Below, one piece after another: positions 4,453-51,871 of a stretch of DNA of 64,000 nt. The translations under genes and the position numbers were made by a program. Source of the DNA: a bacterium (lineage in GTDB: Bacteria; Patescibacteriota; Microgenomatia; UBA1400; UBA12108); NCBI GenBank assembly GCA_043827085.1, contig JBDRPO010000004.1:2847-66846 (forward strand), read 5' to 3'. Every line of letters starts with the position of its first letter. Positions within the stretch are counted from its first letter, which is position 1. The notes below the pieces were generated by a model that saw only the letters and a program-made list of their open reading frames with translations, did not search any database and was not told where the DNA came from.

Positions 4453-4905
4453 ATGTTAGCCACCGATATTAAAAAGATTGAAGAGCTTCTTCAGCTTTTT
4501 GACATTACGCCCGACCAAATCAAGATTGACGAAACTGATGAAGCAGTCACCATCACCGTTGATCAAAGCGAACTCGAAGCCGGCCGCCTAATTGGTCGCT
4601 TTGCCTCTACCCTCGACTCTCTTCAGTTGATTATCTCGCTTATGCTCAATAAAGGCGATGTTCACCGCCACATTCTTTTAGATGTTGCCGGCTACCGCGC
4701 TCGTCGCTTGACCACCCTCGAGACTATGGTTGAAAACGCCAAACAACAAGTGAGAAATATTGGTGGTGCCTGCGCCCTCCCGCCCCTTTCCGCAACCGAA
4801 CGCCGCCAAGTTCATTTTATGCTTCAAGATGATGCAGAATTCACTAGTTACTCCGAAGGCTACGGGCAAGATAGGCGCCTATTTATCGCTCCCAAAACTA
4901 TCTAG
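4453..4905 (+). CDS. jag: Jag/KhpB-like RNA-binding protein (KH + R3H domains)
   Basis: Jag N-terminal domain, KH and a C-terminal R3H-like region, following yidC. The start is set to MLATD at 4453, because the ORF-track start at 4414 overlaps yidC. Confidence 0.75.
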   Translation: MLATDIKKIEELLQLFDITPDQIKIDETDEAVTITVDQSELEAGRLIGRFASTLDSLQLIISLMLNKGDVHRHILLDVAGYRARRLTTLETMVENAKQQVRNIGGACALPPLSATERRQVHFMLQDDAEFTSYSEGYGQDRRLFIAPKTI

Positions 4906-6148
4906 TCTCCTAGTCGGTCTGATTATTTTTTTCTCTGCTACCCAATTTGGTTTGCATTTCTGGCCGCTCTCAACTCTTGTTTATGGCATCCGTATTGACT
5001 ATCTCTCCCCCGCCACCTACTTCCTCGACATCCTAATCATTTTTTATTTATCTCTCTCTTCACGCCTACCATCCACACTCTCTCGCTTGCATTCTATTTT
5101 CCCCATTCTCCTTGTCAATCTCATCTTTTCTCAAAACCCCGCCAGCACCCTCTCCTGGTCTCTCCACCTTGTTCTATATTTGTTGTTTATCTCATCTCTA
5201 CCCCTCAGCAGAATACGCAATACTCTATACAAAATATTGCCCATAGCAATCCTCTTCCAAGTCACGCTCGCGCTCACCCAAGTCACCATTGGTCATTCTG
5301 TTGGTGGGCTCATGTACTACCTTGGTGAACGAACCGTGGCTGTGGGTGCGCCTACGATCGCCCTTGCCATGTTTATGGATCATGTTGTACTACGTGCCTA
5401 TGGTACTTTCGGACACCCCAACGTGCTTGCTGGATGGTTAGTAATCGCTTTATTGATTACCATCCAACTTTGGAGACAACGCCAATCGTCAGTGGGGCTG
5501 ACCTTAAAGGACTCGAGCGCGATTAGTGTCCGAAAAGATCCTAGAAGGTCAGACCCAATGGGTACTAAAACCATTTGGGTACCCCTCATCCTCACCACCC
5601 TCGGCATTTTTCTCACTCAGTCTCGCGCCGCCGCCCTCACCCTCTTTGTTTTCATCATTCCTTTCTATCTACTTAAATCCCTCAAATCTCGAGTGATTTA
5701 TTTTGTACTTATTCTAGCTTCTAGCTTCTATCTTCTATCTTCTGGCACACTATTACGTGCGTTCGATCTCTCCTCTTCCGAGCGCCTTACTTTGCAGGGA
5801 GTCTCCCTTAAAGCAATTCAAGCATTTCCGCTTTTCGGCACCGGGGCGCAGGCTAGCATTTCTACCTACCCTACCGTCTCTCCCAATACTCGCCTCCTCC
5901 AACCCGACCACAATTCTCTTACCCTCTTCCTCTCCTGGTTCGGTATTTTTGGTCTCCTAGCCATTTTATACTCTCTGAGATTTCAATTTAAGAATTTGAG
6001 AATTTATGATTTTCGATTTGTCCTCCCACTCCTCCCACTTCTTCTCCTCGACCACTATCTCTTCACTTCCCCCCAAGGTTTATTTGTATTACTTCTATAC
6101 CCTGCCGTTGCGGTAAACTACTCTCATGCTCAAAAAAATCGCGAGTAA
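4760..6148 (+). CDS. O-antigen ligase (Wzy_C)-like polytopic membrane protein; true start uncertain, probably ~4830-4950
   Basis: 10-12 TM helices and an FLTQSRAAALTLFVF segment typical of O-antigen ligase domains. The N-terminal part of the track ORF overlaps jag and is probably not translated. A 75-bp palindromic repeat is inserted in frame at 5500-5578. Confidence 0.45.
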   Translation: MVVPAPSRPFPQPNAAKFILCFKMMQNSLVTPKATGKIGAYLSLPKLSSLLVGLIIFFSATQFGLHFWPLSTLVYGIRIDYLSPATYFLDILIIFYLSLSSRLPSTLSRLHSIFPILLVNLIFSQNPASTLSWSLHLVLYLLFISSLPLSRIRNTLYKILPIAILFQVTLALTQVTIGHSVGGLMYYLGERTVAVGAPTIALAMFMDHVVLRAYGTFGHPNVLAGWLVIALLITIQLWRQRQSSVGLTLKDSSAISVRKDPRRSDPMGTKTIWVPLILTTLGIFLTQSRAAALTLFVFIIPFYLLKSLKSRVIYFVLILASSFYLLSSGTLLRAFDLSSSERLTLQGVSLKAIQAFPLFGTGAQASISTYPTVSPNTRLLQPDHNSLTLFLSWFGIFGLLAILYSLRFQFKNLRIYDFRFVLPLLPLLLLDHYLFTSPQGLFVLLLYPAVAVNYSHAQKNRE

Positions 6149-23237: not shown

Positions 23238-23789
23238 ATGTTTGACAATCTAGTAGTCTCGTTTCTGGCTGATGAGGTGGTTGGCGGGTTTTTTATCTCC
23301 GTCCCCCCTGGCCATATTGCTTGTATCTATGACCGCGGCCGCGGCGTCCTCAAGCAAGTTTATGGCCCAGGCCTCCACCTGAAGATTCCTTTCTGGCAAG
23401 TCGCTAAACTCTTTAACGCCCAGGTCCTCGAGTATACGATCCACAAGGGCTTTGACTTGAGCAATAAAGAAATCTTGGGTGACGAGCCCATCAAATCCAC
23501 CACCAAAGACGGGGTAGGAGTTGTTGTTGAAGGCTCCATCCTCTTTAAAATCGACAAAGCTAATGCCCCCGAACTCTGGGAAAACATCGGCGAGCACTTT
23601 GTTAGTAAAGTCATCCGCCCCTTTAGTCGGAGCAAAATCTCTGCCATTTTTGCGACCGTCGATGCAAACGTCGTCAAAAACTCCCGCGCTAGCCTGGAAA
23701 AGACACTTAAAGATGAGCTGAACTCCGAGTTCGAGAACCGCGGCTTGATTTGCGAAGGCGTCCTCTTGTCCGAAGTGACCGTCGGTTAA
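23238..23789 (+). CDS. SPFH/band-7 domain protein (HflC/K-like, short)
   Basis: LKIPFWQ..V....Q..E and downstream SPFH-like segments. Only 183 aa, so it may be truncated. Confidence 0.55.
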
Positions 23790-24937
23790 ATTATCCCGAG
23801 CTTTTTCCCCACTTTAATAAACGCTGCAATTCCCGTATCCAGATCTTCCTTTGAGTGTGCCGAGGAGGGCATTACGCGAATTCTCGCCTTCCCCATCGCG
23901 ACCATGGGGAATTTAATGGGTGTTGCAAATACTCCTTCATTAAATAGCTCGCGCGAAAAATCGATCGATTTTTGCTCGTCCCCAATCATGACGGGTGTGA
24001 TTGGCGTCTCAGACACTCCGGTATTAAATCCTGCATTTTTAAACTGAGCCTTAAGATAGTCTCCATTTTCCCATAGTTTCTTTACGAGCTCATCCGACGA
24101 CTCTAGTATCTCCACGCCGGCAATCAGTGCCGCCGCGTCCGGGATCGAGATCCCAGTAGAGAACAAAAACTGCCTGGCTTTTGTGCGCAAGTAATCAATG
24201 AGTTGTTTCTTCCCTGCAATCACTCCTCCCACTACCCCAAAAGCTTTGGATAGTGTTCCGACCTCCACATCCACTTGTCCATGGAGTTTAAAATGTTCGA
24301 CGATCCCTCGTCCGTTTCCAAGTACTCCCTCCCCATGCGCATCGTCCACCACCGTGATCGCATTGTATTTTTTGGCAAGCTCCACGATTTTCGGTAAGGG
24401 GGCAATATCTCCATCCATCGAAAACACTCCATCGGTAACAATCATCACTTGTTTGTCTGTAGTTCCGATCTCCTGAAGCTTCTTTTCCAAATCTTTCATA
24501 TCGTTGTGTTTATAAATAAACTTGTTCTTAATCCCCGCGAGCCGTATCGCATCAATAATCGAAGCGTGATTTAGTTCGTCCGACACTATATAGTCCTCTT
24601 TGGTCATGAGTGTTTGCACGGCCACCAAATTGGCAATATATCCACCTTGCAAAACAAGCGCCGCCTCGACATTTTTGAACTTAGCGAGTTTGGTCTCTAG
24701 TTCCTCATGTAGCTTCGTATTTCCCGATAGTGCCCGCACCGCCCCCGGTCCTACTCCATATTTTTCAATCGCGAGAGTCGCCGCCTTACCAACTCGCGCA
24801 TCCCCCGCGAGTCCCAAATAGTTATTTGAACATAGGTTTAATACTTTTTTCCCATTCACCACTATCCAGGCCCCCTGTGGGGACTCAACCACTCTTTTAT
24901 CTGGCACTACTAGCGTAGGATCTTCCCATGGTCTCAT
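23786..24937 (-). CDS. kbl: Glycine C-acetyltransferase (2-amino-3-ketobutyrate CoA ligase)
   Basis: PLP-dependent class II aminotransferase: VFSMDGD...DDAHG...GTLSKAFG (Lys-PLP). Assigned Kbl rather than BioF because it sits immediately downstream of tdh. Confidence 0.8.
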
Positions 24938-24986
24938 TGTTCTGTCCTCCGATATCCTATATTACTAACTCCTATATTACTATTTC

Positions 24987-26012
24987 TCATGGCGTCAGCA
25001 CGATCTTGCCACTTTGTCCCGACTTCATAATTTTCATCGCCTCTTCAAACTCTGCAAGCTTAAAACGGTGTGTGATAATTGGATCTAAATTTATCTTACC
25101 CGACTTTAGCAACCTAGTCGTTTCTTCCCACGTCTCCCAAATATGTCGCCCAAAAGCCGAAAGAATTGTCAGCTCCTTATTTATCATATACTTCCCCCAA
25201 TCAACGGAGATTGGAGTTTTGGGGATCCCAAAAGCCATTAAAGTCCCCGCAATTCGCACCACATCAAATGCGCGCGCGATTGCCGCTGGATATCCTGACA
25301 TATCGATTACTACATCTATAGCATTGTCATATTCTTTTGGTAACTCAGCATAAACTTTGTCACACCCCATTTTTAATCCCAAATTTCGTCGGTACTCTAC
25401 TGGATCTACTCCTACTATCTCCGCTGCCCCGTTCGCCTTTGCAACTCCAGAAGCCGCCAGCCCCGTCGGCCCCATCCCAAATATCACCACGCGTTTCCCC
25501 TTTACCCTCGCCATCGTAATTACGTGTACTGCGTTTCCAAATGGCTCCTGCACACTCATCCAGTCAAGTTTAATTGCTGGATCATTTTTCCAGCTTGTCC
25601 GAATTGGCACCGTCGCATACTCAGCAAACCCACCATTTCTCCCGATCCCAAATAATTGCATTTTCTCGCATATATGTCGCCGGTTATTCTGGCACTGATA
25701 GCACTTGCCGCAAAAAATATGCGTTTCTGACGACACTAAGTCTCCAACTTTCAATTGACCATTGACCATTGACCATTGACCATTAATTTCCAGGACCTCT
25801 CCCAAAACTTCGTGTCCGATCACGACTGGCGGCTTGATGTGGTCGGCCGCCCACGGCGTCCAGTCATAGATCCCAATATCCGTCCCACAAATCGACGCTG
25901 CCCTTACCTTTATCAATAACTCGCCGGGTTCAGGGGAGGGGATCGGTATCTGCTTCAGCACGACACCTGGCTCTGCTTTCTCCTTCACGACCGCGAGCAT
26001 CATCTTTTTCAT
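24987..26012 (-). CDS. tdh: L-threonine 3-dehydrogenase (Zn-dependent MDR family)
   Basis: Zn-ADH motifs (CGTD.G, GHEVLGEV, CGKCYQCQ, GMGPTGL Rossmann) upstream of kbl. Contains a perfect (ATTGACC)x4 tandem repeat at 25754-25781. Confidence 0.85.
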   Translation of the reverse strand: MKKMMLAVVKEKAEPGVVLKQIPIPSPEPGELLIKVRAASICGTDIGIYDWTPWAADHIKPPVVIGHEVLGEVLEINGQWSMVNGQLKVGDLVSSETHIFCGKCYQCQNNRRHICEKMQLFGIGRNGGFAEYATVPIRTSWKNDPAIKLDWMSVQEPFGNAVHVITMARVKGKRVVIFGMGPTGLAASGVAKANGAAEIVGVDPVEYRRNLGLKMGCDKVYAELPKEYDNAIDVVIDMSGYPAAIARAFDVVRIAGTLMAFGIPKTPISVDWGKYMINKELTILSAFGRHIWETWEETTRLLKSGKINLDPIITHRFKLAEFEEAMKIMKSGQSGKIVLTP

Positions 26013-26090
26013 ACCTCGCTATTGTAGCAAAGTTATCTATTCTTAGTATTGACACTCAACTATGACTATGGTACTATGACCATAGTCATT

Positions 26091-26330
26091 ATGTTAAAAA
26101 CAACAATTTCTAAATCAGAATTCAAAGCCAAAGCCCTCGAATACATGCGCTTTGTCGAGCAAAACAATCAACCCATTATCGTTACTGACATGGGAACTCC
26201 CGTTATTCAGGTTCAAGTTTTTCAACCAAAATCCAAGAGTGATCCATACGATTATTACCGCGGCAGCGTTCTCAAGTATGTCGGACCCAACAAACCCCTC
26301 GATTTGGAGGATTGGGGAAGATTAAAGTGA
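26091..26330 (+). CDS. Phd/YefM-type antitoxin (partner of the downstream PIN toxin)
   Basis: ~79 aa starting MLKTTISKSEFKAKALEYMRFVEQNNQPIIVT. A 24-bp perfect palindrome (GACTATGGTACTATGACCATAGTC, 26061-26084) just upstream is a likely autoregulatory operator. Confidence 0.5.
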   Translation: MLKTTISKSEFKAKALEYMRFVEQNNQPIIVTDMGTPVIQVQVFQPKSKSDPYDYYRGSVLKYVGPNKPLDLEDWGRLK

Positions 26331-26722
26331 TTCTACTAGACACCAATGCTTTTATTTGGTGGCTGTCTGATCGTGATAAACTCTCAAGTCGCGCACTATC
26401 CTCTATAAATTCACATGCTGTCGACAACAAAATACTCATTTCATCTATGAGTATTTGGGAGATTTGTTTATTAGTCCAAAAAAAACGTATCGACATTCAC
26501 GATTCACTTGAAAACTGGGTAAGCGGTTTAAAGAAACTACCCGATCTGGAATTTATTCCCATTGACAACGATATTGCCTATCAGGCAACTAATTTACCAG
26601 GTATTTTCCATAAAGATCCTGCCGATCGTATTATCGTGGCAACAGCTCGTTTTCTTGGTGCTACCCTCATCACTAGCGATAAACTAATTTTCAGATACAA
26701 ACACGTCAAAACCATTTGGTAG
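26312..26722 (+). CDS. vapC: PIN-domain toxin (VapC family)
   Basis: ILLDTNAFIWW...D.....TAR.......TSD pattern of acidic PIN residues. Overlaps the antitoxin stop. Confidence 0.75.
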   Translation: MGKIKVILLDTNAFIWWLSDRDKLSSRALSSINSHAVDNKILISSMSIWEICLLVQKKRIDIHDSLENWVSGLKKLPDLEFIPIDNDIAYQATNLPGIFHKDPADRIIVATARFLGATLITSDKLIFRYKHVKTIW

Positions 26723-26740
26723 TTATTCGCTTTGATCCAG

Positions 26741-26794
26741 TTGACACGCCGACCTCATTTTCTTACAATAGCACTCGCACAGTACGAGTGATAA
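26741..26794 (+). promoter_or_regulatory. groES promoter (TTGACA-17-TACAAT) overlapping a CIRCE operator (ATAGCACTC-N9-GAGTGATAA)
   Basis: TTGACA 26741-26746, TACAAT 26764-26769, CIRCE 26768-26794 (consensus TTAGCACTC-N9-GAGTGCTAA). Ribosome-binding site AGGAGG at 26810. Confidence 0.75.
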
Positions 26795-26818
26795 TTAATT
26801 ACTTAAACAGGAGGAACT

Positions 26819-28755
<1,937 letters not shown>

Positions 28756-28919: not shown

Positions 28920-29297
28920 ATGTCTAAATCGCGCTTTCGTCGTGGCTCCCGCAAATCCATTTACCTCATCCTCGGTTTCTCCTTTATCCTCGCTCTCGGT
29001 TACGTCTATTTCCGCGCGCTCCTCTCACCTGCTCCCGCTCAAATCTTCCCCATCACCCCCACAGTGCTCGAATACGGCAATACCACCGTCGAAGGCACGC
29101 TCCGCAAAGATGCTCCCGCAGGCAGTCCCGGCAACTTCATTCTCGTCCTGTCAGACTCCCGCCCCATCCTCTTAGATGTCCAGGGTCTCGACCATCTCCT
29201 CAATCAAACAGTTACTGTTTCCGGCCTTCTCTCTCCCGCTGCAGAAACTAGTGCTCCTATGACTATGGTTGTCTCTCAACTTACCGTCGCTCAATAA
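28920..29297 (+). CDS. Hypothetical membrane-anchored small protein
   Basis: N-terminal TM helix (IYLILGFSFILALGYVYF), 125 aa, immediately upstream of the giant surface protein. Confidence 0.35.
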   Translation: MSKSRFRRGSRKSIYLILGFSFILALGYVYFRALLSPAPAQIFPITPTVLEYGNTTVEGTLRKDAPAGSPGNFILVLSDSRPILLDVQGLDHLLNQTVTVSGLLSPAAETSAPMTMVVSQLTVAQ

Positions 29298-29304
29298 ATT
29301 CATT

Positions 29305-32300
29305 ATGAAAAAATCCAAACTCAAAAAATCTCACCAGCCCAAATTTTACCCCTTCAAATACCTCAAATTCATCGCTCTCGCCACCATTATCTTTTTCGCC
29401 GGCTCTCTATATCTCGCCTTCCGTTACACCACCGGTCCCTTTGCTACTTTTGTCTTCCTCCATCCTCTCTCCGTCAATCTAATCAAATCTGACGTCCCCG
29501 AGCTAAATGCCAAAAATGCCGCCAAACAGGCCGCCGCTATCCATCTCAAACAAAAACCCGGTGATACAAAAGGAGCCGAAAAAGTTGCCGCCTCTGCCGC
29601 TAAGCAAGCCGTCAAGCAAACCATCCAAACCTTTGCTCCCCAGACAAAAGTGAAACCAGAAAATGCAATTGATAGTCAATCATCCACAGAACAAAAAATC
29701 ATGCAATTTGTTGAAGACACCACTGGCAAATCGCTTGATTTAAATGCTAGCATCTCTGACGCCATCAAAAAAGCTCAAGAATCAGTTGTTACAGATGACT
29801 TTGTTAGTAAAGCCGTTAATGATGCTAAATCAAACATTCCTGCAAGCTCTGGTACTAAATGTGGTAGTAGTAGCAAATCTTGCGGTGGTGGTAACGTCCC
29901 CGTCAAAGTTGGTTGCTGGGCCGCCACTGGTGGCGCACCAACCGATGAAGAGGGAAAAACTCTTCCTCAACGCTCCTGCGTCCGCTGCGGTCTCGATGCC
30001 TCCGGCGAGCCAACCTGGAATCGTGACGACAGTGGTGGTTCAGTATCCGGGAAAAACTGTAGTGATCTCTATAAACAAGATCCTTCCCAGGTCATCCTCC
30101 CCCCCAATCCTCCCACAGAATACACTCTCGGCATTTCTCAACCCAAGGGCGGGTGGGAAGGCACTAGGGTACTTGAGGATGGTACTATCATCACTTGTTC
30201 TGCCAAATTCGGTTGTTGGGATGGTGGCGCCAAAGCCAACTGCTACGATTCTGACGGTGGTGTCGTTGTGACCGGTGGCTCTGGCTCCGGTGGCAAGGGT
30301 AGATGTTTCAACGGTGGTTGGTACGAGACCGACTCTGCCTATCAAGAAGTATCAACTAATTTCGATAACACCATGAAAGCAAAATGTGAAGAGTTTGGTA
30401 AATCATTTAGCGGTGGCAAATGCGGCGGCAGCCAGGAACCTATACCCGAATCAGACTTAGGCATTCAACTTTCAGATGCACAAAAACAAGAGGAACTAAA
30501 GAAAGTCCAAGAAGCTCAAAGACTCGCCGAAGCCGCCGAAGCAAAACGCCTCGCCACTCAATATTCTGATAGTTCATGTGGCAGAAAATTGTATACTGGC
30601 GAAAAATGTTTCCCCGTCAATGTTAAAACATCTAGTGGCGAAAACCAAACCAAATACATGATCGTTCCCAATGACTTAAAAGCTACCATTACAACCCAGG
30701 GTGGTAACAACAGTATGGAGCGACAGTATTTTGCATATAAATTCGGCTCCAATTCCGGTGAAGCCAACATTCCCACCACCCCTAAACTCTCTCAAGATGG
30801 TGGTCAATTTGTCGTAAAAGCTTCAGATTGTGCAGGGGATGGCGCAAAGGGTGCTAAAGTTACTCGTTCCGGTAATCAAATGGGATATGCCTGTGGTAAC
30901 TCCAACGGTACTCCATTCGATTATGTTAAACAGCTCAACGAAATCACTGCCATGCAAAAAGCTGCAGAAGCCAAAGCTGTTTCTTCGAAAGATGACACTA
31001 TCGCGCTCCAAAATCAATCTGACAATACGCAAAGAGATAAATTGATCTTAGCCTACAATGCTCTCAAGCAAAACGGAATATCAATCAAAACAATCAAAAC
31101 TGACAATTGTAGTACCTCAGCCGATTGTCTTGACTACAATCAATATATCGATCTAATCGATCTAAATGATTTAAAACATCAAATAGACATTCATCACGAC
31201 ATCGTAAATTACGTCAATACGTATGAGCAAATTATCGATAATAACAAAAATGCGTTTTATGATAGATCATTCAAAAATTTTTGGACAGGTGAATACCACA
31301 CGAAAGTATATTGCGACCAAAACAAACTGAAGTGCATAAAAGTAGCCAATGGTATTGCCTATAATTATCTAACGGTAGATCAAATCAATACTAAAGCGGC
31401 AAGTTTACCAATCGAAAACTTTACACTCGCCCCCACCACAATTGTTTCTCCCACCAAGGAAGAATCAATCCTTACTTCTTCCGAAGAACTCCTTGCCAAA
31501 TACAACCAACTCGAAAAGGATGGGTATACAAAAACATTCAATGAAAATAATCAATACAAGATAGGGATTCTATGCGGAGACGATTGTATCAAGATTCCTG
31601 GACGTTGGTTATTTAACTACCTACCAGCCTCCACCATCGAGGAAATTTATAATAAATATTATCCAACCACTCAATCAGTCACAACTCCAACTACACCCAC
31701 CCCTCCTAACACTACTACCAACCCCGTCGCCGTTTATCCCGCCCCAGTCACTCAACCAGCCCCCACCCAACCAGGCGGCAATAGTTCAAATGGAATTAGT
31801 TTAGATTTTACCGTTGCCAAACAAAATGGCGTTACCACTCCAATGCCAGGTACCTACAGTAAAGCCACTCCAAATGGAATTCAAGTACTAGAACGCGGTT
31901 GTGGACCTCTCACCGTTTATAACGTCAAAAAATATCTCGGGCAAAATATTACCGTAGGCCAAGCCTATCAAGAATACAACTGGACTTGCACAGACAAAGG
32001 TTGTTCAACTAACGTTGATCAAACCCTCGCCGAATTAGGAGCTCGCGAAAGTTTCAAAAAGCCTATTATCGACGCTACAACTATTAAAAGTAAAGACGGC
32101 GTTTATCTTTATGGTGGTCAAGTTTCCGGAAACGAAGGCAGTAAAATTAACCACATATCAGCCTTTATTGTAGACAATGGTGTAGTCTACAAACTAGACT
32201 CCAATTTTGGCAGCAATAAGCCAGAGAAATGTTCCGACATCGCAAGTGGGAGTATTAAGTGTGGAGCTACCAGTTACCGCATAGCCCCAGCCGACCAATC

Positions 32301-32352
32301 TGACGGAATCGCCGATGCACTCTATTATCTCCCCGGCTCAGATACACAATAA
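29305..32352 (+). CDS. Large Cys-rich, Thr/Pro-linker-containing cell-surface protein (hypothetical)
   Basis: ~1015 aa. N-terminal signal anchor, K/A-rich segment, multiple Cys-rich modules, a TTPTTPTPPNTTTNP linker and a C-terminal globular domain. Confidence 0.4.
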   Translation: MKKSKLKKSHQPKFYPFKYLKFIALATIIFFAGSLYLAFRYTTGPFATFVFLHPLSVNLIKSDVPELNAKNAAKQAAAIHLKQKPGDTKGAEKVAASAAKQAVKQTIQTFAPQTKVKPENAIDSQSSTEQKIMQFVEDTTGKSLDLNASISDAIKKAQESVVTDDFVSKAVNDAKSNIPASSGTKCGSSSKSCGGGNVPVKVGCWAATGGAPTDEEGKTLPQRSCVRCGLDASGEPTWNRDDSGGSVSGKNCSDLYKQDPSQVILPPNPPTEYTLGISQPKGGWEGTRVLEDGTIITCSAKFGCWDGGAKANCYDSDGGVVVTGGSGSGGKGRCFNGGWYETDSAYQEVSTNFDNTMKAKCEEFGKSFSGGKCGGSQEPIPESDLGIQLSDAQKQEELKKVQEAQRLAEAAEAKRLATQYSDSSCGRKLYTGEKCFPVNVKTSSGENQTKYMIVPNDLKATITTQGGNNSMERQYFAYKFGSNSGEANIPTTPKLSQDGGQFVVKASDCAGDGAKGAKVTRSGNQMGYACGNSNGTPFDYVKQLNEITAMQKAAEAKAVSSKDDTIALQNQSDNTQRDKLILAYNALKQNGISIKTIKTDNCSTSADCLDYNQYIDLIDLNDLKHQIDIHHDIVNYVNTYEQIIDNNKNAFYDRSFKNFWTGEYHTKVYCDQNKLKCIKVANGIAYNYLTVDQINTKAASLPIENFTLAPTTIVSPTKEESILTSSEELLAKYNQLEKDGYTKTFNENNQYKIGILCGDDCIKIPGRWLFNYLPASTIEEIYNKYYPTTQSVTTPTTPTPPNTTTNPVAVYPAPVTQPAPTQPGGNSSNGISLDFTVAKQNGVTTPMPGTYSKATPNGIQVLERGCGPLTVYNVKKYLGQNITVGQAYQEYNWTCTDKGCSTNVDQTLAELGARESFKKPIIDATTIKSKDGVYLYGGQVSGNEGSKINHISAFIVDNGVVYKLDSNFGSNKPEKCSDIASGSIKCGATSYRIAPADQSDGIADALYYLPGSDTQ

Positions 32353-48787: not shown

Positions 48788-51700
48788 ATGAAAAAACCAA
48801 CTAAAAACCTCGCATTTAAAAAAGCCTACAAAGCACTCAATGCCGAGCAGAAAAAAGCCGTGGACACAATCGACGGCCCAGTCATGCTCATCGCCGGCCC
48901 CGGCACCGGCAAGACCCAAACTCTCGCGCTCCGCATCGCCAACATTCTCAAGAACACCGACACTCCCGCCTCCAGTATTCTCGCTCTCACTTTTACCGAG
49001 TCCGGCGCCCGCGCTATGCACGCGAGGCTAATCAACATGATTGGTGCGGAGGCCTACTACGCCCACATCTCCACTTTCCACGCTTTCTGTATAGAAATCA
49101 TCAAAGACAACCCCGATCACTTCACCCTGAACCCCAATCTCGAACCTCTTTCGGATCTAGAGAAACTCAAAATTATCTATGAGCTAATCGACACTACGCC
49201 ACTCAAATATTTGCGCCCCGTGGGTGCCCCCCGTCTCTACGTCAAAGCTATCCTAGGAGCGATCAGCGATCTAAAGCGTGAAAGTGTTTCGGTCGACGAG
49301 TTTGAAGAATTGCTCAGAGCTGAAGAAATACTACTAAATTCGGATGATGCCAAAGATCTCAAGAAAGTTGAACTGACTAAGCGGCTTCACAATCTCGCCA
49401 AAAATAAAGAGTTGAATATCCTCTATGGCAAATACCAGGCTCAGCTCAAAAAACTTGAAACATTTGATTTTGAAGATATGATCTCCACGGTCGTAGCGGC
49501 ATTCAAGACAGATGGTGATCTGCTTCGTTCCTGTCAGGAAAAATATCTCTATATTTTAGTTGACGAATATCAGGACACCAACTCCGCTCAAAACGAACTC
49601 ATCCTTGCCCTGTCGAGTTACTGGGGAGATAACGCAAATATTTTTGTCACCGGCGATCCAGACCAGTCCATCATGCGTTTCCAAGGCGCCTCAATCGAAA
49701 ATCAACTTTCTTTCATTAAAGTGTATCCCAAAGCTACCGTGATCACGCTTCATGCTAACTATCGTAGCTCCCAAACAATATTGGATGTCGCAGACTCCCT
49801 CATCTCTCACAACAATCTCAGGATTAGCGACGTGGTCCCAAGTGTCGATACCCACTTAATTTCGCAATGTGGCAAAGGGGAGTCAATCGGACTAGCCGAG
49901 CTCTCTGGCAGTACCGCCGAAACGGTTTTCATTGCAGAAGATATCAAGCGCAAAATAAAAGGCAGAGTTAGTCCCACAGATATCGCGGTCATCTACCACA
50001 CCAACAAAGAGTCCATGATTATCGCCGACACCCTAGTCAAATACGGTCTCGACTACACCGTGCAAGGTGGAGCCAATATTCTCGCCGACCCGACCGTACG
50101 CAATTTTATTAAAATCTTAAAAGTCATTTATAAAATGCGCGATAGCGACGACGACGAAGATCTCTTTACCATTCTCCATTATGATATTTTTCATATCGAC
50201 CCCCTCGACGTTTTAAAAATCTCACGCTTGGCCGGGGTCAAGCGACTGAGTTTGTTTGATGTCATCGCAAGTCCAGAATTATTAAATTCACTTGACCTCG
50301 CAACTAGAGCCCAAATCAACACGACTATTACCTCGCTCGGTGTCTGGCAAGCACTGGACGCCAGTACTACCTTCAGCGAGTTTTTTGAAAAAGTCTTAAA
50401 CGAGTCAGGCTACCTCACCTGGGTTTTGGGACAGTCAGATGCACACCACCGCCTCGCTCGCCTCAATACTTTGTTCGACGAAGTCAAACGGATGAATCGC
50501 TCCGATCACGCCCTTGATCTCAAAGGTTTTATCGAGAATCTGCATATTATGGAAGACAACAATTTACGGCTCGAAGAATCGACTTATGGTGTTAGTCGTG
50601 ATGCTATCACGCTCACGACCGCGCACAAGAGCAAAGGTCTCGAATGGGAGCATGTCTATATCTATCGTGCGATCGACAAAGGGTGGGGCAACAACAAAAA
50701 GCCGGAGAAAATCACCCTCCCCGATGGCGTCTTAAAACACGTCAAGTTATCCGACAAAGAAAAAAATGAAGATGAGCGGAGGCTTTTCTACGTGGCTGCT
50801 ACCCGCGCCAAGTCAGAGCTCACGATCACCTATGCCGATTCTTATTCTAGCTATGGCACCTCCCGTGAAGCCGTCCCCACCATGTTTATTTCTGAGTTAG
50901 GCCTGCCCACCACAGCTTCTCGCGACAGCGGGATGCGGGCGGGAGACAGTCCTTTAAAAAAGCTCGACGTGCAAGCCGTCGAAAATGAAGCACACAAACA
51001 TATCGAAACTCTCCTTACCTCTCCAACAAGTAGCAATTATTCGCAAGCTGAAGAGGCTTTTCTCCAGGACATCGCCGACAATTACAAACTCTCCGCCACT
51101 TCGCTCAACTCTTATCTCTTTTGTGCTTACAAATTTAAGCTCGACAAATTGCTGAGAGTCCCGCACGCGAAAAAGTCTCACCTCGCCTTTGGTACTGCCG
51201 TCCACTCTGCTCTCGAGAATTTTTACACAAAGTTCAAAGATGAAGGTGTTGCTCCCGGCAAAGAGTATTTACTCTCCGAGTTTGCACGCGCGCTAAGTTC
51301 AGCCGTCATTACCAAGGCCGATTTATCTATCTTCCAGGCCAAGGGTAGGGAAGTCCTCTCCGCCTACTTCGATTTAAACGCCACTAGTTTTACCCTTCCC
51401 CTAGCGACAGAAAAAAATATTTCCGCGCATCTCGGGGATATCGAGATCTCCGGCAAACTCGATCGCCTCGAGTGGTCAAACAAAGAGGTTAAACTCGTCC
51501 GCGTCATCGACTACAAAACTGGCAGTCCCAAAACGATGGGGAAGATAGAGGGCACCACCAAGAATAGCGATGGTGATTTACAGCGCCAACTAGAGTTTTA
51601 CAAACTTCTCATCGATTCGGGTCCTGGGTTAAATTACAAATTTGGCGAGGCCATGTTCGATTTTGTGGAAGAACCACTCGACAAGGGTAAGGACGGCAAA

Positions 51701-51871
51701 CGCCATATCCTCGTCACTGACAAACAAGTCAACGATCTAAGATCTATGATCTATCAAACTATGAAAGATATCCGCTCGCTCCACTTCCCCCGCACGACTA
51801 ACTACAAAGCCTGCGCCAAATGCGCCTTCGCCGACCACTGCTACCCAGACGGTATTCTTACCAACCTCTAG
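48788..51871 (+). CDS. AddA-like single-chain helicase-nuclease: UvrD/PcrA superfamily-1 helicase fused to a C-terminal PD-(D/E)xK nuclease with a Cas4/AddB-type Cys cluster
   Basis: Walker A GPGTGKTQT, helicase motifs through motif VI, then a nuclease core (IDYKTGSPK; D...E.K) with C...CAKCAFADHC (C-x2-C-x5-C plus one upstream Cys). Confidence 0.8.
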   Translation: MKKPTKNLAFKKAYKALNAEQKKAVDTIDGPVMLIAGPGTGKTQTLALRIANILKNTDTPASSILALTFTESGARAMHARLINMIGAEAYYAHISTFHAFCIEIIKDNPDHFTLNPNLEPLSDLEKLKIIYELIDTTPLKYLRPVGAPRLYVKAILGAISDLKRESVSVDEFEELLRAEEILLNSDDAKDLKKVELTKRLHNLAKNKELNILYGKYQAQLKKLETFDFEDMISTVVAAFKTDGDLLRSCQEKYLYILVDEYQDTNSAQNELILALSSYWGDNANIFVTGDPDQSIMRFQGASIENQLSFIKVYPKATVITLHANYRSSQTILDVADSLISHNNLRISDVVPSVDTHLISQCGKGESIGLAELSGSTAETVFIAEDIKRKIKGRVSPTDIAVIYHTNKESMIIADTLVKYGLDYTVQGGANILADPTVRNFIKILKVIYKMRDSDDDEDLFTILHYDIFHIDPLDVLKISRLAGVKRLSLFDVIASPELLNSLDLATRAQINTTITSLGVWQALDASTTFSEFFEKVLNESGYLTWVLGQSDAHHRLARLNTLFDEVKRMNRSDHALDLKGFIENLHIMEDNNLRLEESTYGVSRDAITLTTAHKSKGLEWEHVYIYRAIDKGWGNNKKPEKITLPDGVLKHVKLSDKEKNEDERRLFYVAATRAKSELTITYADSYSSYGTSREAVPTMFISELGLPTTASRDSGMRAGDSPLKKLDVQAVENEAHKHIETLLTSPTSSNYSQAEEAFLQDIADNYKLSATSLNSYLFCAYKFKLDKLLRVPHAKKSHLAFGTAVHSALENFYTKFKDEGVAPGKEYLLSEFARALSSAVITKADLSIFQAKGREVLSAYFDLNATSFTLPLATEKNISAHLGDIEISGKLDRLEWSNKEVKLVRVIDYKTGSPKTMGKIEGTTKNSDGDLQRQLEFYKLLIDSGPGLNYKFGEAMFDFVEEPLDKGKDGKRHILVTDKQVNDLRSMIYQTMKDIRSLHFPRTTNYKACAKCAFADHCYPDGILTNL

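What the first reader, a model, noticed from the sequence alone, without database searches (positions are those of the whole stretch)
25754..25781. Perfect heptanucleotide tandem repeat (ATTGACC)x4 inside the tdh coding sequence
Twenty-eight bp of perfect 7-nt tandem repeat lie within the threonine dehydrogenase gene. They encode INGQWSMVNGQ between the conserved GHEVLGEV and KVGD segments. Three repeat units equal 21 nt, or 7 aa, so the present frame is consistent with an in-frame expansion of an ancestral single NGQ copy. The unit is not a multiple of three, so any plus or minus one-unit slippage would frameshift tdh. This could act as a contingency-style on/off switch in the kbl-tdh operon. 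A weaker 7-mer tract (TAGCTTC x2 / TATCTTC x2) sits at 5708-5735 in the ligase-like gene.
Basis: seen in the sequence. Interest (0 to 1): 0.65.

Follow-up and report, generated by a model that had tools for sequence, protein, structure and literature searches.

The report
Heptanucleotide microsatellite inside a tdh loop
A perfect 7-base repeat (4.4 copies) really does sit inside the threonine dehydrogenase gene of this candidate-phyla-radiation bacterium, but it is best read as an ordinary replication-slippage microsatellite that lengthened a length-variable loop, and nothing supports an on/off switch.

Summary
(ATTGACC)x4.4 is a perfect repeat at 25754-25784, far longer than chance allows. 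It lies in a 341-aa Tdh-type Zn-dehydrogenase (24987-26012, minus strand) upstream of kbl and encodes N77-Q86 (NGQWSMVNGQ).

About 70 orthologues (58-86% identity) lack both the repeat and the peptide. They carry a short loop (EING-ESE-IKVGD) whose length varies independently in other lineages. In an AF2 model the insert is a lower-confidence loop between two strands, and all Zn ligands and the Rossmann motif are conserved.

Nothing supports phase variation, though:
- The tract has only 4 units, whereas documented phase-variable heptamer tracts have about 6-38.
- The gene is a core metabolic gene.
- No orthologue carries the repeat.
- The two public records of this strain both carry 4 units.

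The "single NGQ + 3 units" origin is too simple, because it implies a loop shorter than in any relative examined. Period-7 tracts are the dominant tandem-repeat class across this Microgenomates/Levybacteria clade (18 per 452 kb against 0.1 expected). That matches the known over-representation of heptanucleotide SSRs in prokaryotes.

Verdict: a recent in-frame slippage product and a new member of a known kind. Interest is low to moderate.

The parts
25754..25784 (-). Perfect heptanucleotide microsatellite: (AATGGTC)x4 + AAT on the coding strand, (ATTGACC)x4.4 on the plus strand. It covers codons N77-Q86 of tdh plus one base of L87.
24987..26012 (-). tdh-type Zn-dependent medium-chain dehydrogenase, 341 aa. 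All Zn ligands (C42, H67, E68, E156; C101, C104, C107, C115) and the G179-x-G181-x-x-G184 motif are conserved.
23786..24937 (-). kbl (glycine C-acetyltransferase / 2-amino-3-ketobutyrate CoA ligase), immediately downstream of tdh on the same strand. The pair is syntenic in all relatives examined.
   Evidence: NF005394 466 bits, above its cutoff of 460; synteny
5712..5743 (+). Second period-7 tract, (TTCTAGC)x2(TTCTATC)x2.6, inside a Wzy_C/O-antigen-ligase-family ORF (4760-6148). It encodes LILASSFYLLSS and has no net length change against 30 orthologues.
51734..51754 (+). Third period-7 tract, (GATCTAA)(GATCTAT)x2, inside a UvrD-helicase/PD-(D/E)XK nuclease ORF (48788-51871).

Best explanation
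The tract is a young simple-sequence repeat (heptanucleotide microsatellite) created by replication slippage in one lineage of a Microgenomates-group (Patescibacteria/CPR) bacterium. It persists in tdh because its net effect is in frame and it falls in a length-tolerant loop between two beta strands of the catalytic domain. The loop lies just after the GHE zinc-ligand motif. The enzyme is intact and currently in frame. The tract is one instance of a clade-wide, and more generally prokaryote-wide, mutational bias towards 7-nt tandem repeats. It makes tdh somewhat more prone to frameshift loss, but that is a by-product and not an evolved switch.

Shown: the repeat and its significance, its absence from relatives, the variable loop length, the conserved active-site residues, the clade-wide period-7 excess, and the frameshift consequences.

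Inferred: slippage as the generating mechanism, neutrality or tolerance of the insert, and the absence of a switching function.
For: 1. The tract is perfect at 31 nt, against 13-19 nt at most in simulations. Having no degenerate units argues for a recent origin.
2. About 70 orthologues at 58-86% identity have no heptamer periodicity in their DNA and no NGQWSMV peptide.
3. The same loop has unrelated long variants in other lineages: P0004/L010 DLPAQAGSE, P0005 DPSENEAG, L011 DPTKEEAG. It ranges from 3 to 9 residues after 'NG', so it tolerates insertions.
4. The AF2 model (pLDDT 87, pTM 0.86) places residues 77-91 in a coil between strands 69-76 and 92-95, with local pLDDT about 64. The model superposes on solved TDHs at TM 0.91.
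5. All catalytic and structural Zn ligands and the NAD motif are invariant.
6. Under a criterion with equal chance expectation for each period, period 7 gives 3 tracts in the window (0-1 for each other period from 4 to 21; expected ~0.01-0.03). It gives 18 tracts in 452 kb of related MAG loci, against 0-7 for other periods and a Markov-3 expectation of 0.1.
7. Tracts occur in assorted genes and are enriched in spacers: 8 of 21 lie in the ~8% of sequence that is non-coding.
8. The identical heptamer forms 3-18-copy arrays in more than 120 unrelated metagenome contigs.
9. Literature: heptanucleotide repeats are the most abundant long-SSR class in most prokaryotic genomes and are attributed to polymerase slippage (Mrazek et al. 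2007, as summarised in PMC4679880 and PMC4692102).
Against: - A pure slippage history from ~1.4 to ~4.4 units must pass through frameshifted (null) intermediates or add 3 units at once. It also does not reproduce the loop length of relatives, so the exact path is unresolved.
- The nearest relatives (4 loci, 52 kb) show no period-7 tract. The bias is therefore not uniformly visible at this sample size.
- Tolerance of the W- and M-containing insert is inferred from a model and from loop variability. It has not been measured.
- No read-level data were available, so ongoing instability cannot be excluded.
Confidence: 0.75

Rival explanations
1. Contingency locus: the tract is a selected hypermutable switch. 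Gain or loss of one unit turns tdh off, with possible polar effects on the downstream kbl, and a later change restores it. This would give population-level ON/OFF heterogeneity in threonine catabolism.
For: - The unit length is not divisible by 3, and the tract lies early in the ORF (codons 77-87 of 341).
- A change of +/-1 or +/-2 units gives 84-111-aa truncations lacking the structural-Zn lobe and the whole NAD domain, while +/-3 units restores the frame.
- A tract of 3 or more units meets the permissive screening threshold used for H. influenzae SSRs (PMC2651432).
- Any stepwise slippage history would itself have passed through OFF alleles.
Against: - The tract has only 4 units. Heptanucleotide tracts judged phase-variable in H. 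influenzae carry about 6-38 units and sit in adhesin or TonB-receptor loci (PMC2651432).
- tdh-kbl is a core metabolic pair conserved in synteny across the clade.
- No orthologue carries any repeat there.
- No truncated or +/-7-aa allele appears among 5796 homologues or in the 90% cluster.
- The two public records both have 4 units.
- Similar tracts occur in unrelated housekeeping genes (Wzy_C-family, UvrD-like) and in spacers, as expected from a mutational bias and not from targeted selection.
Confidence: 0.07
2. Adaptive loop extension: the inserted peptide (QWSMVNG) was fixed because it changes Tdh properties such as oligomer contacts, stability or partner binding. The nucleotide repeat is only the way it arose.
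For: - The same loop has been lengthened independently in at least two other lineages (P0004/L010 and P0005/L011).
- The insert introduces bulky hydrophobic residues (W80, M82), which are unusual for a neutral surface loop.
Against: - The insert sequence is dictated entirely by reading one heptamer in three frames, and no relative has a similar peptide.
- The model gives it low confidence and no regular structure.
- A perfect repeat implies too little time for selection to be visible.
Confidence: 0.1
3. DNA- or RNA-level element: the array acts as a binding-site array or as an antisense promoter. The plus strand carries four tandem TTGACC, resembling the -35 hexamer, and faces the vapBC-like genes.
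For: TTGACC matches 5 of 6 positions of TTGACA and occurs 4 times on the plus strand. Heptamer arrays upstream of genes have been proposed as regulatory elements in Beggiatoaceae and cyanobacteria (PMC4679880).
Against: - The promoter scan finds no -35/-10 pair using the tract. The only plus-strand promoter-like site is at 26049-26077, 265 nt away.
- The tract lies inside a CDS and is absent from all relatives.
- The same heptamer is a generic SSR in unrelated contigs.
Confidence: 0.03
4. Assembly or sequencing artefact that created or miscounted the repeat.
For: Tandem repeats can be miscounted, and two related loci end in heptamer arrays at contig ends (L026, L036).
Against: - At 31 nt the tract is far shorter than a read.
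- Two different assemblies (the NCBI MAG contig and the Logan contig) agree exactly.
- The copy number present is the one that keeps a 341-aa ORF with all conserved motifs in frame.
Confidence: 0.02

Closest known systems
Long simple sequence repeats with 5-11-nt units (LSSR5-11), heptanucleotide class (Mrazek, Guo & Shah 2007, as summarised in PMC4679880 and PMC4692102)
   Same: A tandem, uninterrupted 7-nt unit that is longer than statistically expected. Period 7 is the dominant class in the genome neighbourhood and clade, tracts are enriched in spacers, and the origin is attributed to polymerase slippage.
   Different: This tract sits inside a conserved metabolic CDS, where units not divisible by 3 are normally disfavoured. 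The lineage is Patescibacteria/Microgenomates, and my literature search found no SSR survey for that group.
Heptanucleotide phase-variable SSRs of Haemophilus influenzae (hmw1A/hmw2A promoter TGAAAGA repeats; AACAACC in a TonB-dependent receptor; AATTTTG within hmw1A) - PMC2651432
   Same: A 7-nt unit, with an intragenic position in some cases, where unit changes shift the frame and truncate the product.
   Different: Those tracts have about 6-38 units, vary between strains, and control surface or uptake proteins of a host-adapted pathogen. This one has 4 units, no observed variation, and lies in a housekeeping enzyme.
Cyanobacterial STRR / Xanthomonas GGGAATC / Beggiatoaceae TAACTGA heptamer arrays (PMC4692102, PMC4679880)
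   Same: Tandem heptamers that are abundant in particular lineages.
   Different: Those are families of one recurring motif, mostly intergenic, with proposed structural or regulatory roles. The clade here shows many different AT-rich units with no shared motif, and the tdh unit is unrelated to them.
L-threonine 3-dehydrogenase of Pyrococcus horikoshii / Thermococcus kodakarensis (PDB 2dfv, 2d8a, 3gfb)
   Same: Best sequence match (E = 3e-94) and best fold match (TM 0.91). The Zn ligands are the same, and the gene is adjacent to kbl.
   Different: The loop after the GHE strand is 4 residues longer here (EINGQWSMVNGQLKVGD against EIGPGVEGIEVGD). Scores fall below NCBIfam's curated Tdh cutoffs.

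Membership tests
Simple sequence repeat / microsatellite (heptanucleotide LSSR) | At least 3 uninterrupted head-to-tail copies of a 1-11-nt unit | tested here: met
   4.4 perfect copies at 25754-25784
Simple sequence repeat / microsatellite (heptanucleotide LSSR) | Longer than expected from the genome's composition | tested here: met
   31 nt, against a maximum of 13-19 nt in 300 Markov-2 simulations
Contingency locus (phase-variable SSR gene) | The SSR is placed so that a unit change switches expression (frameshift or promoter spacing) | tested here: met
   +/-1 or +/-2 units give 84-111-aa truncations; +/-3 units are in frame
Contingency locus (phase-variable SSR gene) | Copy-number polymorphism between strains or within a population | tested here: inconclusive
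   Only two public records of this strain exist (an NCBI MAG and a Logan SRR26275510 contig). Both have 4 units and are possibly built from the same reads. No variant was found in the metagenome scans or in the protein cluster.
Contingency locus (phase-variable SSR gene) | Tract length in the range associated with high slippage rates | tested here: not met
   4 units here. Documented phase-variable heptanucleotide tracts have about 6-38 units (PMC2651432). The tract does pass the permissive screening threshold of 3 or more units.
Contingency locus (phase-variable SSR gene) | The gene class is one where stochastic switching is advantageous (surface structures, restriction-modification, uptake), and the repeat recurs in orthologues or paralogues | tested here: not met
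   The gene is a core tdh-kbl catabolic pair. The repeat is absent from ~70 orthologues.
L-threonine 3-dehydrogenase (Zn-dependent MDR; TIGR00692 / NF003808) | Score above the curated family cutoff | tested here: not met
   TIGR00692 scores 362.4 bits against a cutoff of 458.35. NF003808 scores 347.5 against 380. Both are nonetheless by far the best families.
L-threonine 3-dehydrogenase (Zn-dependent MDR; TIGR00692 / NF003808) | Catalytic Zn ligands, four-Cys structural Zn site and GxGxxG NAD motif | tested here: met
   C42, H67, E68, E156; C101, C104, C107, C115; and G179, G181, G184 are invariant in a 43-sequence alignment that includes the query
L-threonine 3-dehydrogenase (Zn-dependent MDR; TIGR00692 / NF003808) | TDH fold and genomic pairing with kbl | tested here: met
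   The five best Foldseek PDB hits are all TDHs (2dfv TM 0.91). kbl lies directly downstream and is syntenic in relatives.
L-threonine 3-dehydrogenase (Zn-dependent MDR; TIGR00692 / NF003808) | NAD-dependent oxidation of L-threonine to 2-amino-3-ketobutyrate | not testable with these tools
   Requires an enzyme assay

The most novel reading that the evidence does not exclude
The tract is a working contingency switch in an ultra-small CPR bacterium. It would stochastically toggle one of the few amino-acid catabolic routes (Thr to Gly + acetyl-CoA). More broadly, heptanucleotide SSRs in Microgenomates genes and 5' spacers would constitute a 'phasome' in a non-pathogenic, episymbiotic lineage.
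Probability: 0.06. Interest if true: 0.65.

Novelty: new member of a known kind. Interest (0 to 1): 0.25.

Why it matters
As it stands, this is a clean, datable example of how slippage of a unit not divisible by 3 can still produce an in-frame protein insertion. It also adds Microgenomates/Levybacteria to the lineages where heptanucleotide SSRs dominate. It would matter more if read-level data showed copy-number heterogeneity. Metabolic phase variation in a CPR organism has not been described as far as I know, and it would bear on how these reduced-genome cells diversify. The tract is also a practical warning for annotation and binning: SSRs like this break assemblies (two related contigs end in such arrays), and a one-unit miscount would turn tdh into an apparent pseudogene.

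Tried and rejected
1. Copy-number variants.
- An exact-flank scan with a 10-40-nt variable gap in JGI metagenomes found 0 hits.
- The repeat-core scan found more than 120 contigs, but none encodes a Tdh relative.
- Exact-protein look-ups of tdh, kbl and groES found only the single Logan contig.
- The 90% protein cluster holds only the MAG's own 341-aa protein and the 338-aa Logan call.
- No population information could be obtained.

2. Reconstructing the ancestral DNA from the nearest relatives failed. They are too diverged (86% aa or less, synonymous sites scrambled), and no intermediate state exists.

3. Testing '1+3 units' as a general rule on the second tract: rejected, because there is no length change against 30 orthologues.

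4. Antisense promoter formed by the TTGACC array: rejected, because there is no matching -10 element.

5. Identity with the cyanobacterial STRR, TAACTGA or GGGAATC families: rejected, because the units differ and the clade's tracts share no motif.

6. Two 1027-aa ORFs as paralogues: rejected, because they are unrelated.

7. A small E. coli control (50 kb) showed no tracts of period 5 or more. It is too small to say much beyond showing that the method does not invent period-7 hits.

Full report
**1. Observation**

The window carries ATTGACC repeated 4.4 times without a mismatch at 25754-25784. In 300 second-order Markov simulations of the window, the longest perfect period-7 run was 13-19 nt, so the tract is not a chance event.

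It lies on the antisense strand of ORF 24987-26012 (minus strand, 341 aa). On the coding strand it reads (AATGGTC)x4+AAT. That is CDS nt 229-259, i.e. codons N77 to Q86 plus one base of L87. A Logan assembly of run SRR26275510 is 100% identical to window 24686-28490 and has the same 4 full units. The NCBI MAG protein MFH2085247.1, on a 69,684-nt contig that is evidently the source of the window, is identical as well.

**2. The gene**

- The ORF is a Zn-dependent medium-chain dehydrogenase whose best families are the two L-threonine 3-dehydrogenase models. TIGR00692 scores 362 bits and NF003808 scores 347 bits, both below their curated cutoffs of 458 and 380.
- The best solved relatives are the archaeal TDHs 2d8a, 2dfv and 3gfb (E = 3e-94 to 4e-90).
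- An AlphaFold2 model built on 43 homologues (pLDDT 87, pTM 0.86) superposes on TDH 2dfv at TM 0.91, and the five best PDB matches are all TDHs.
- The catalytic Zn ligands (C42, H67, E68, E156), the four-Cys structural site (C101, C104, C107, C115) and the NAD motif (G179, G181, G184) are invariant in the alignment that includes the query.
- kbl follows on the same strand (23786-24937; NF005394 scores 466 bits, above its cutoff).
- The arrangement of groEL-groES diverging from tdh-kbl is conserved in relatives.

The gene is therefore intact and in frame, and calling it tdh is reasonable, with the cutoff caveat noted.

**3. Comparison with orthologues**

The protein database holds 5796 homologues at E <= 1e-30. 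Apart from the strain itself, the nearest are 78-86% identical and come from Microgenomates-group (Patescibacteria) MAGs. Levybacteria sit at about 60-66%.

- In 42 aligned proteins and 13 further genome loci, the segment between EIN and [IVL]K[VI]GD is short. Typical forms are G-ESE, G-ESDK and G-DAGD, which is 3-4 residues after NG.
- None has NGQWSMV, and none shows any heptamer periodicity in its DNA.
- The loop nevertheless varies in length. P0004/L010 carries DLPAQAGSE, P0005 carries DPSENEAG and L011 carries DPTKEEAG. These are unrelated sequences of 8-9 residues at the same place.
- In the model, residues 77-91 form a coil between strands 69-76 and 92-95, and confidence is lowest there (about 64 for residues 81-90).

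The insert is thus lineage-specific and sits in a loop that has repeatedly accepted insertions.

**4. The origin model**

Removing three units gives EINGQLKVGD. That has one residue after NG, 2-3 fewer than in any relative examined. The net difference from typical relatives is +4 to +5 aa (12-15 nt), which is not a multiple of 7. A simple "ancestral NGQ plus three units" history is therefore incomplete, and at least one further indel or replacement is required. The available relatives are too diverged to reconstruct it.

Any stepwise slippage path from about 1.4 to about 4.4 units also passes through frameshifted alleles. This remains unexplained.

**5. Frameshift logic**

A change of +/-1 or +/-2 units gives products of 84, 104, 111 or 91 aa. 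All of these lack the structural-Zn lobe and the whole nucleotide-binding domain. A change of +/-3 units is in frame, giving 334 or 348 aa. The coding-sense unit has no stop in any frame, whereas the opposite sense contains TGA.

**6. Is it a switch?**

I could find no variation.

- An exact-flank scan of JGI metagenomes with a 10-40-nt gap gave nothing.
- A scan for three units of the repeat found more than 120 contigs, but none encodes a Tdh relative.
- Exact look-ups of the neighbouring proteins found only the one Logan contig.
- The 90% cluster contains only the two records of the same allele.
- No truncated 100%-identical fragment appears among the best 120 hits.

This is absence of data more than evidence of stability, because the organism appears in only one sample. 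The indirect criteria all point away from a contingency locus.

- The tract has four units. The heptanucleotide tracts judged phase-variable in H. influenzae have about 6-38 units, differ between strains, and control adhesins or TonB-dependent receptors (PMC2651432).
- tdh-kbl is a conserved metabolic pair.
- The repeat is absent from every relative.
- The tract does pass the permissive screening threshold of 3 or more units used in that study, so it is a formal candidate but nothing more.

**7. Wider context**

It lies in a Wzy_C-family membrane protein. Unlike the tdh tract, it is not an insertion. Thirty orthologues have the same length there, and the encoded LILASSFYLLSS is still homologous to, for example, LILVSISYLLPS.

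I applied a criterion with the same chance expectation for every period (14 comparisons, at least 13 matches).

| Sequence set | Period 7 | Other periods | Expected |
|---|---|---|---|
| Window, 64 kb | 3 tracts | 0-1 each (periods 4-21) | ~0.01-0.03 per period |
| Related loci L010-L037, 452 kb | 18 tracts | period 8: 7; period 9: 6; all others 0-5 | Markov-3: 0.1 for period 7 |

The third window tract is 51734-51754, in a UvrD/PD-(D/E)XK helicase-nuclease. The units in the related loci are diverse and mostly AT-rich. Of the 21 tracts, 8 lie in the ~8% of sequence not covered by ORFs, and the rest lie in assorted genes. The four nearest relatives' loci (52 kb) have none.

This pattern is what Mrazek et al. 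(2007) reported for prokaryotes in general, as summarised in PMC4679880 and PMC4692102. Heptanucleotide repeats are the most abundant long-SSR class in most genomes. They were attributed to polymerase slippage, possibly because about 7 nt contact the polymerase. Units not divisible by three are under-represented in coding regions. The identical heptamer GGTCAAT forms 3-18-copy arrays in many unrelated metagenome contigs with GC from 34 to 69%. Whenever it lies in a long open frame, it is read in the GGTCAAT sense.

**8. Other readings considered**

- The plus strand presents four TTGACC motifs resembling -35 hexamers. No -10 element is suitably spaced, and the only promoter-like site on that strand is at 26049-26077.
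- An assembly artefact is unlikely. The tract is 31 nt, two assemblers reproduce it, and its copy number is the one that preserves the frame.
- An adaptive role for the inserted peptide cannot be excluded. The sequence is simply one heptamer read in three frames, and it is modelled as disordered.

**9. Verdict**

The proposed origin is too simple. The contingency-switch function is unsupported and, on indirect criteria, unlikely (about 6-7%).

The best explanation (about 75%) is a recent slippage-generated heptanucleotide microsatellite. It is tolerated because its net effect is in frame and it falls in a length-variable loop, in a clade where heptamer SSRs are the dominant tandem-repeat class. 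It is a new member of a known kind. Interest is low to moderate (0.25). The decisive test is read-level copy-number counting in SRR26275510.

Noticed in passing
L010-L037 (28 genome loci, 452 kb), e.g. L016 2889-2923 and 17370-17408; L026 13905-13960; L028 1036-1075 and 1091-1122; L036 13100-13141; L025 4045-4075: Period-7 tandem tracts are the dominant tandem-repeat class in Microgenomates/Levybacteria MAG loci: 18 tracts, against 0-7 for any other period from 4 to 21 and a Markov-3 expectation of 0.1. The units are diverse and AT-rich with no shared motif. My literature search found no SSR survey of Patescibacteria.
   Followed up: partly
L016 17370-17408; L020 3107-3128; L025 14271-14291; L032 14518-14538; L034 7225-7254: Most intergenic heptamer tracts lie within about 20 nt upstream of a start codon. 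In L016, (AATTTCT)x5.6 fills almost the whole 45-nt spacer between two co-directional genes. In L020, (AATATTT)x3 lies in the tdh-kbl spacer. This could simply reflect short spacers, or it could affect translation initiation or spacing, as proposed for TAACTGA arrays in Beggiatoaceae.
   Followed up: no
window 5712-5743; L025 4045-4075: Two coding tracts show an AABB pattern: two units of one variant followed by two or more units of a single-base variant (TTCTAGC/TTCTATC and ATTTGCC/ATTTACC). This implies a mutation followed by further unit duplication. The window tract has no net length change against orthologues. How periodicity spread without changing length is unexplained.
   Followed up: partly
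window 24954-24983 (minus strand, tdh-kbl spacer): There is a 15-nt tandem duplication (TAGTAATATAGGAGT / TAGTAATATAGGATA) just upstream of the kbl ribosome-binding site. The spacer is 49 nt here, against 9-11 nt in L002 and L005, and 47 nt in L007.
   Followed up: partly
window 26049-26722 (+): A Phd/YefM-like antitoxin (weak Pfam hit) and a PIN-domain toxin pair is inserted between groES and tdh. It is absent at this position from the close relatives L002, L005, L007 and L009, where groES and tdh are adjacent.
   Followed up: partly
L026 13905-13960 and L036 13100-13141: Long heptamer arrays of 8 and about 6 units lie at or within 50 nt of contig ends. This suggests that such SSRs break short-read assemblies of these MAGs.
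   Followed up: no
L007 13868-13899: A relative carries an octanucleotide tract, (TCCAGTTT) in about 4 copies, inside a CTP_transf_like (nucleotidyltransferase) ORF. This is another intragenic SSR whose unit is not divisible by 3.
   Followed up: no
L019 3560-3584 and L026 3489-3514: A similar (AATTTCN)x3.6 tract occurs at corresponding positions of similar-sized minus-strand ORFs (342 and 355 aa) in two different MAGs. Some coding heptamer tracts may therefore be conserved and not recent. blastn returned no nucleotide alignment between the two loci at E <= 1e-20, and orthology of the two ORFs was not checked.
   Followed up: no
L040-L119 (metagenome contigs), e.g. L089 6085-6189 and L092 527-764: The same heptamer GGTCAAT forms arrays of 3-18 copies in more than 120 unrelated metagenome contigs (GC 34-69%). 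In long open frames it is always read in the GGTCAAT sense, because the other sense contains TGA.
   Followed up: partly
window 29269-32352 (+): A 1027-aa ORF has no Pfam match at E <= 1e-3. It is unrelated to the equally long UvrD-like ORF at 48788-51871.
   Followed up: no
L010, L012, L013, L014 and other loci (record titles): Several TPA MAG records titled 'uncultured Pseudomonadales' or 'uncultured Gammaproteobacteria' carry tdh proteins 58-84% identical to the window's (other loci in the same identity range are titled Levybacteria or Patescibacteria). The names look like mislabels.
   Followed up: no
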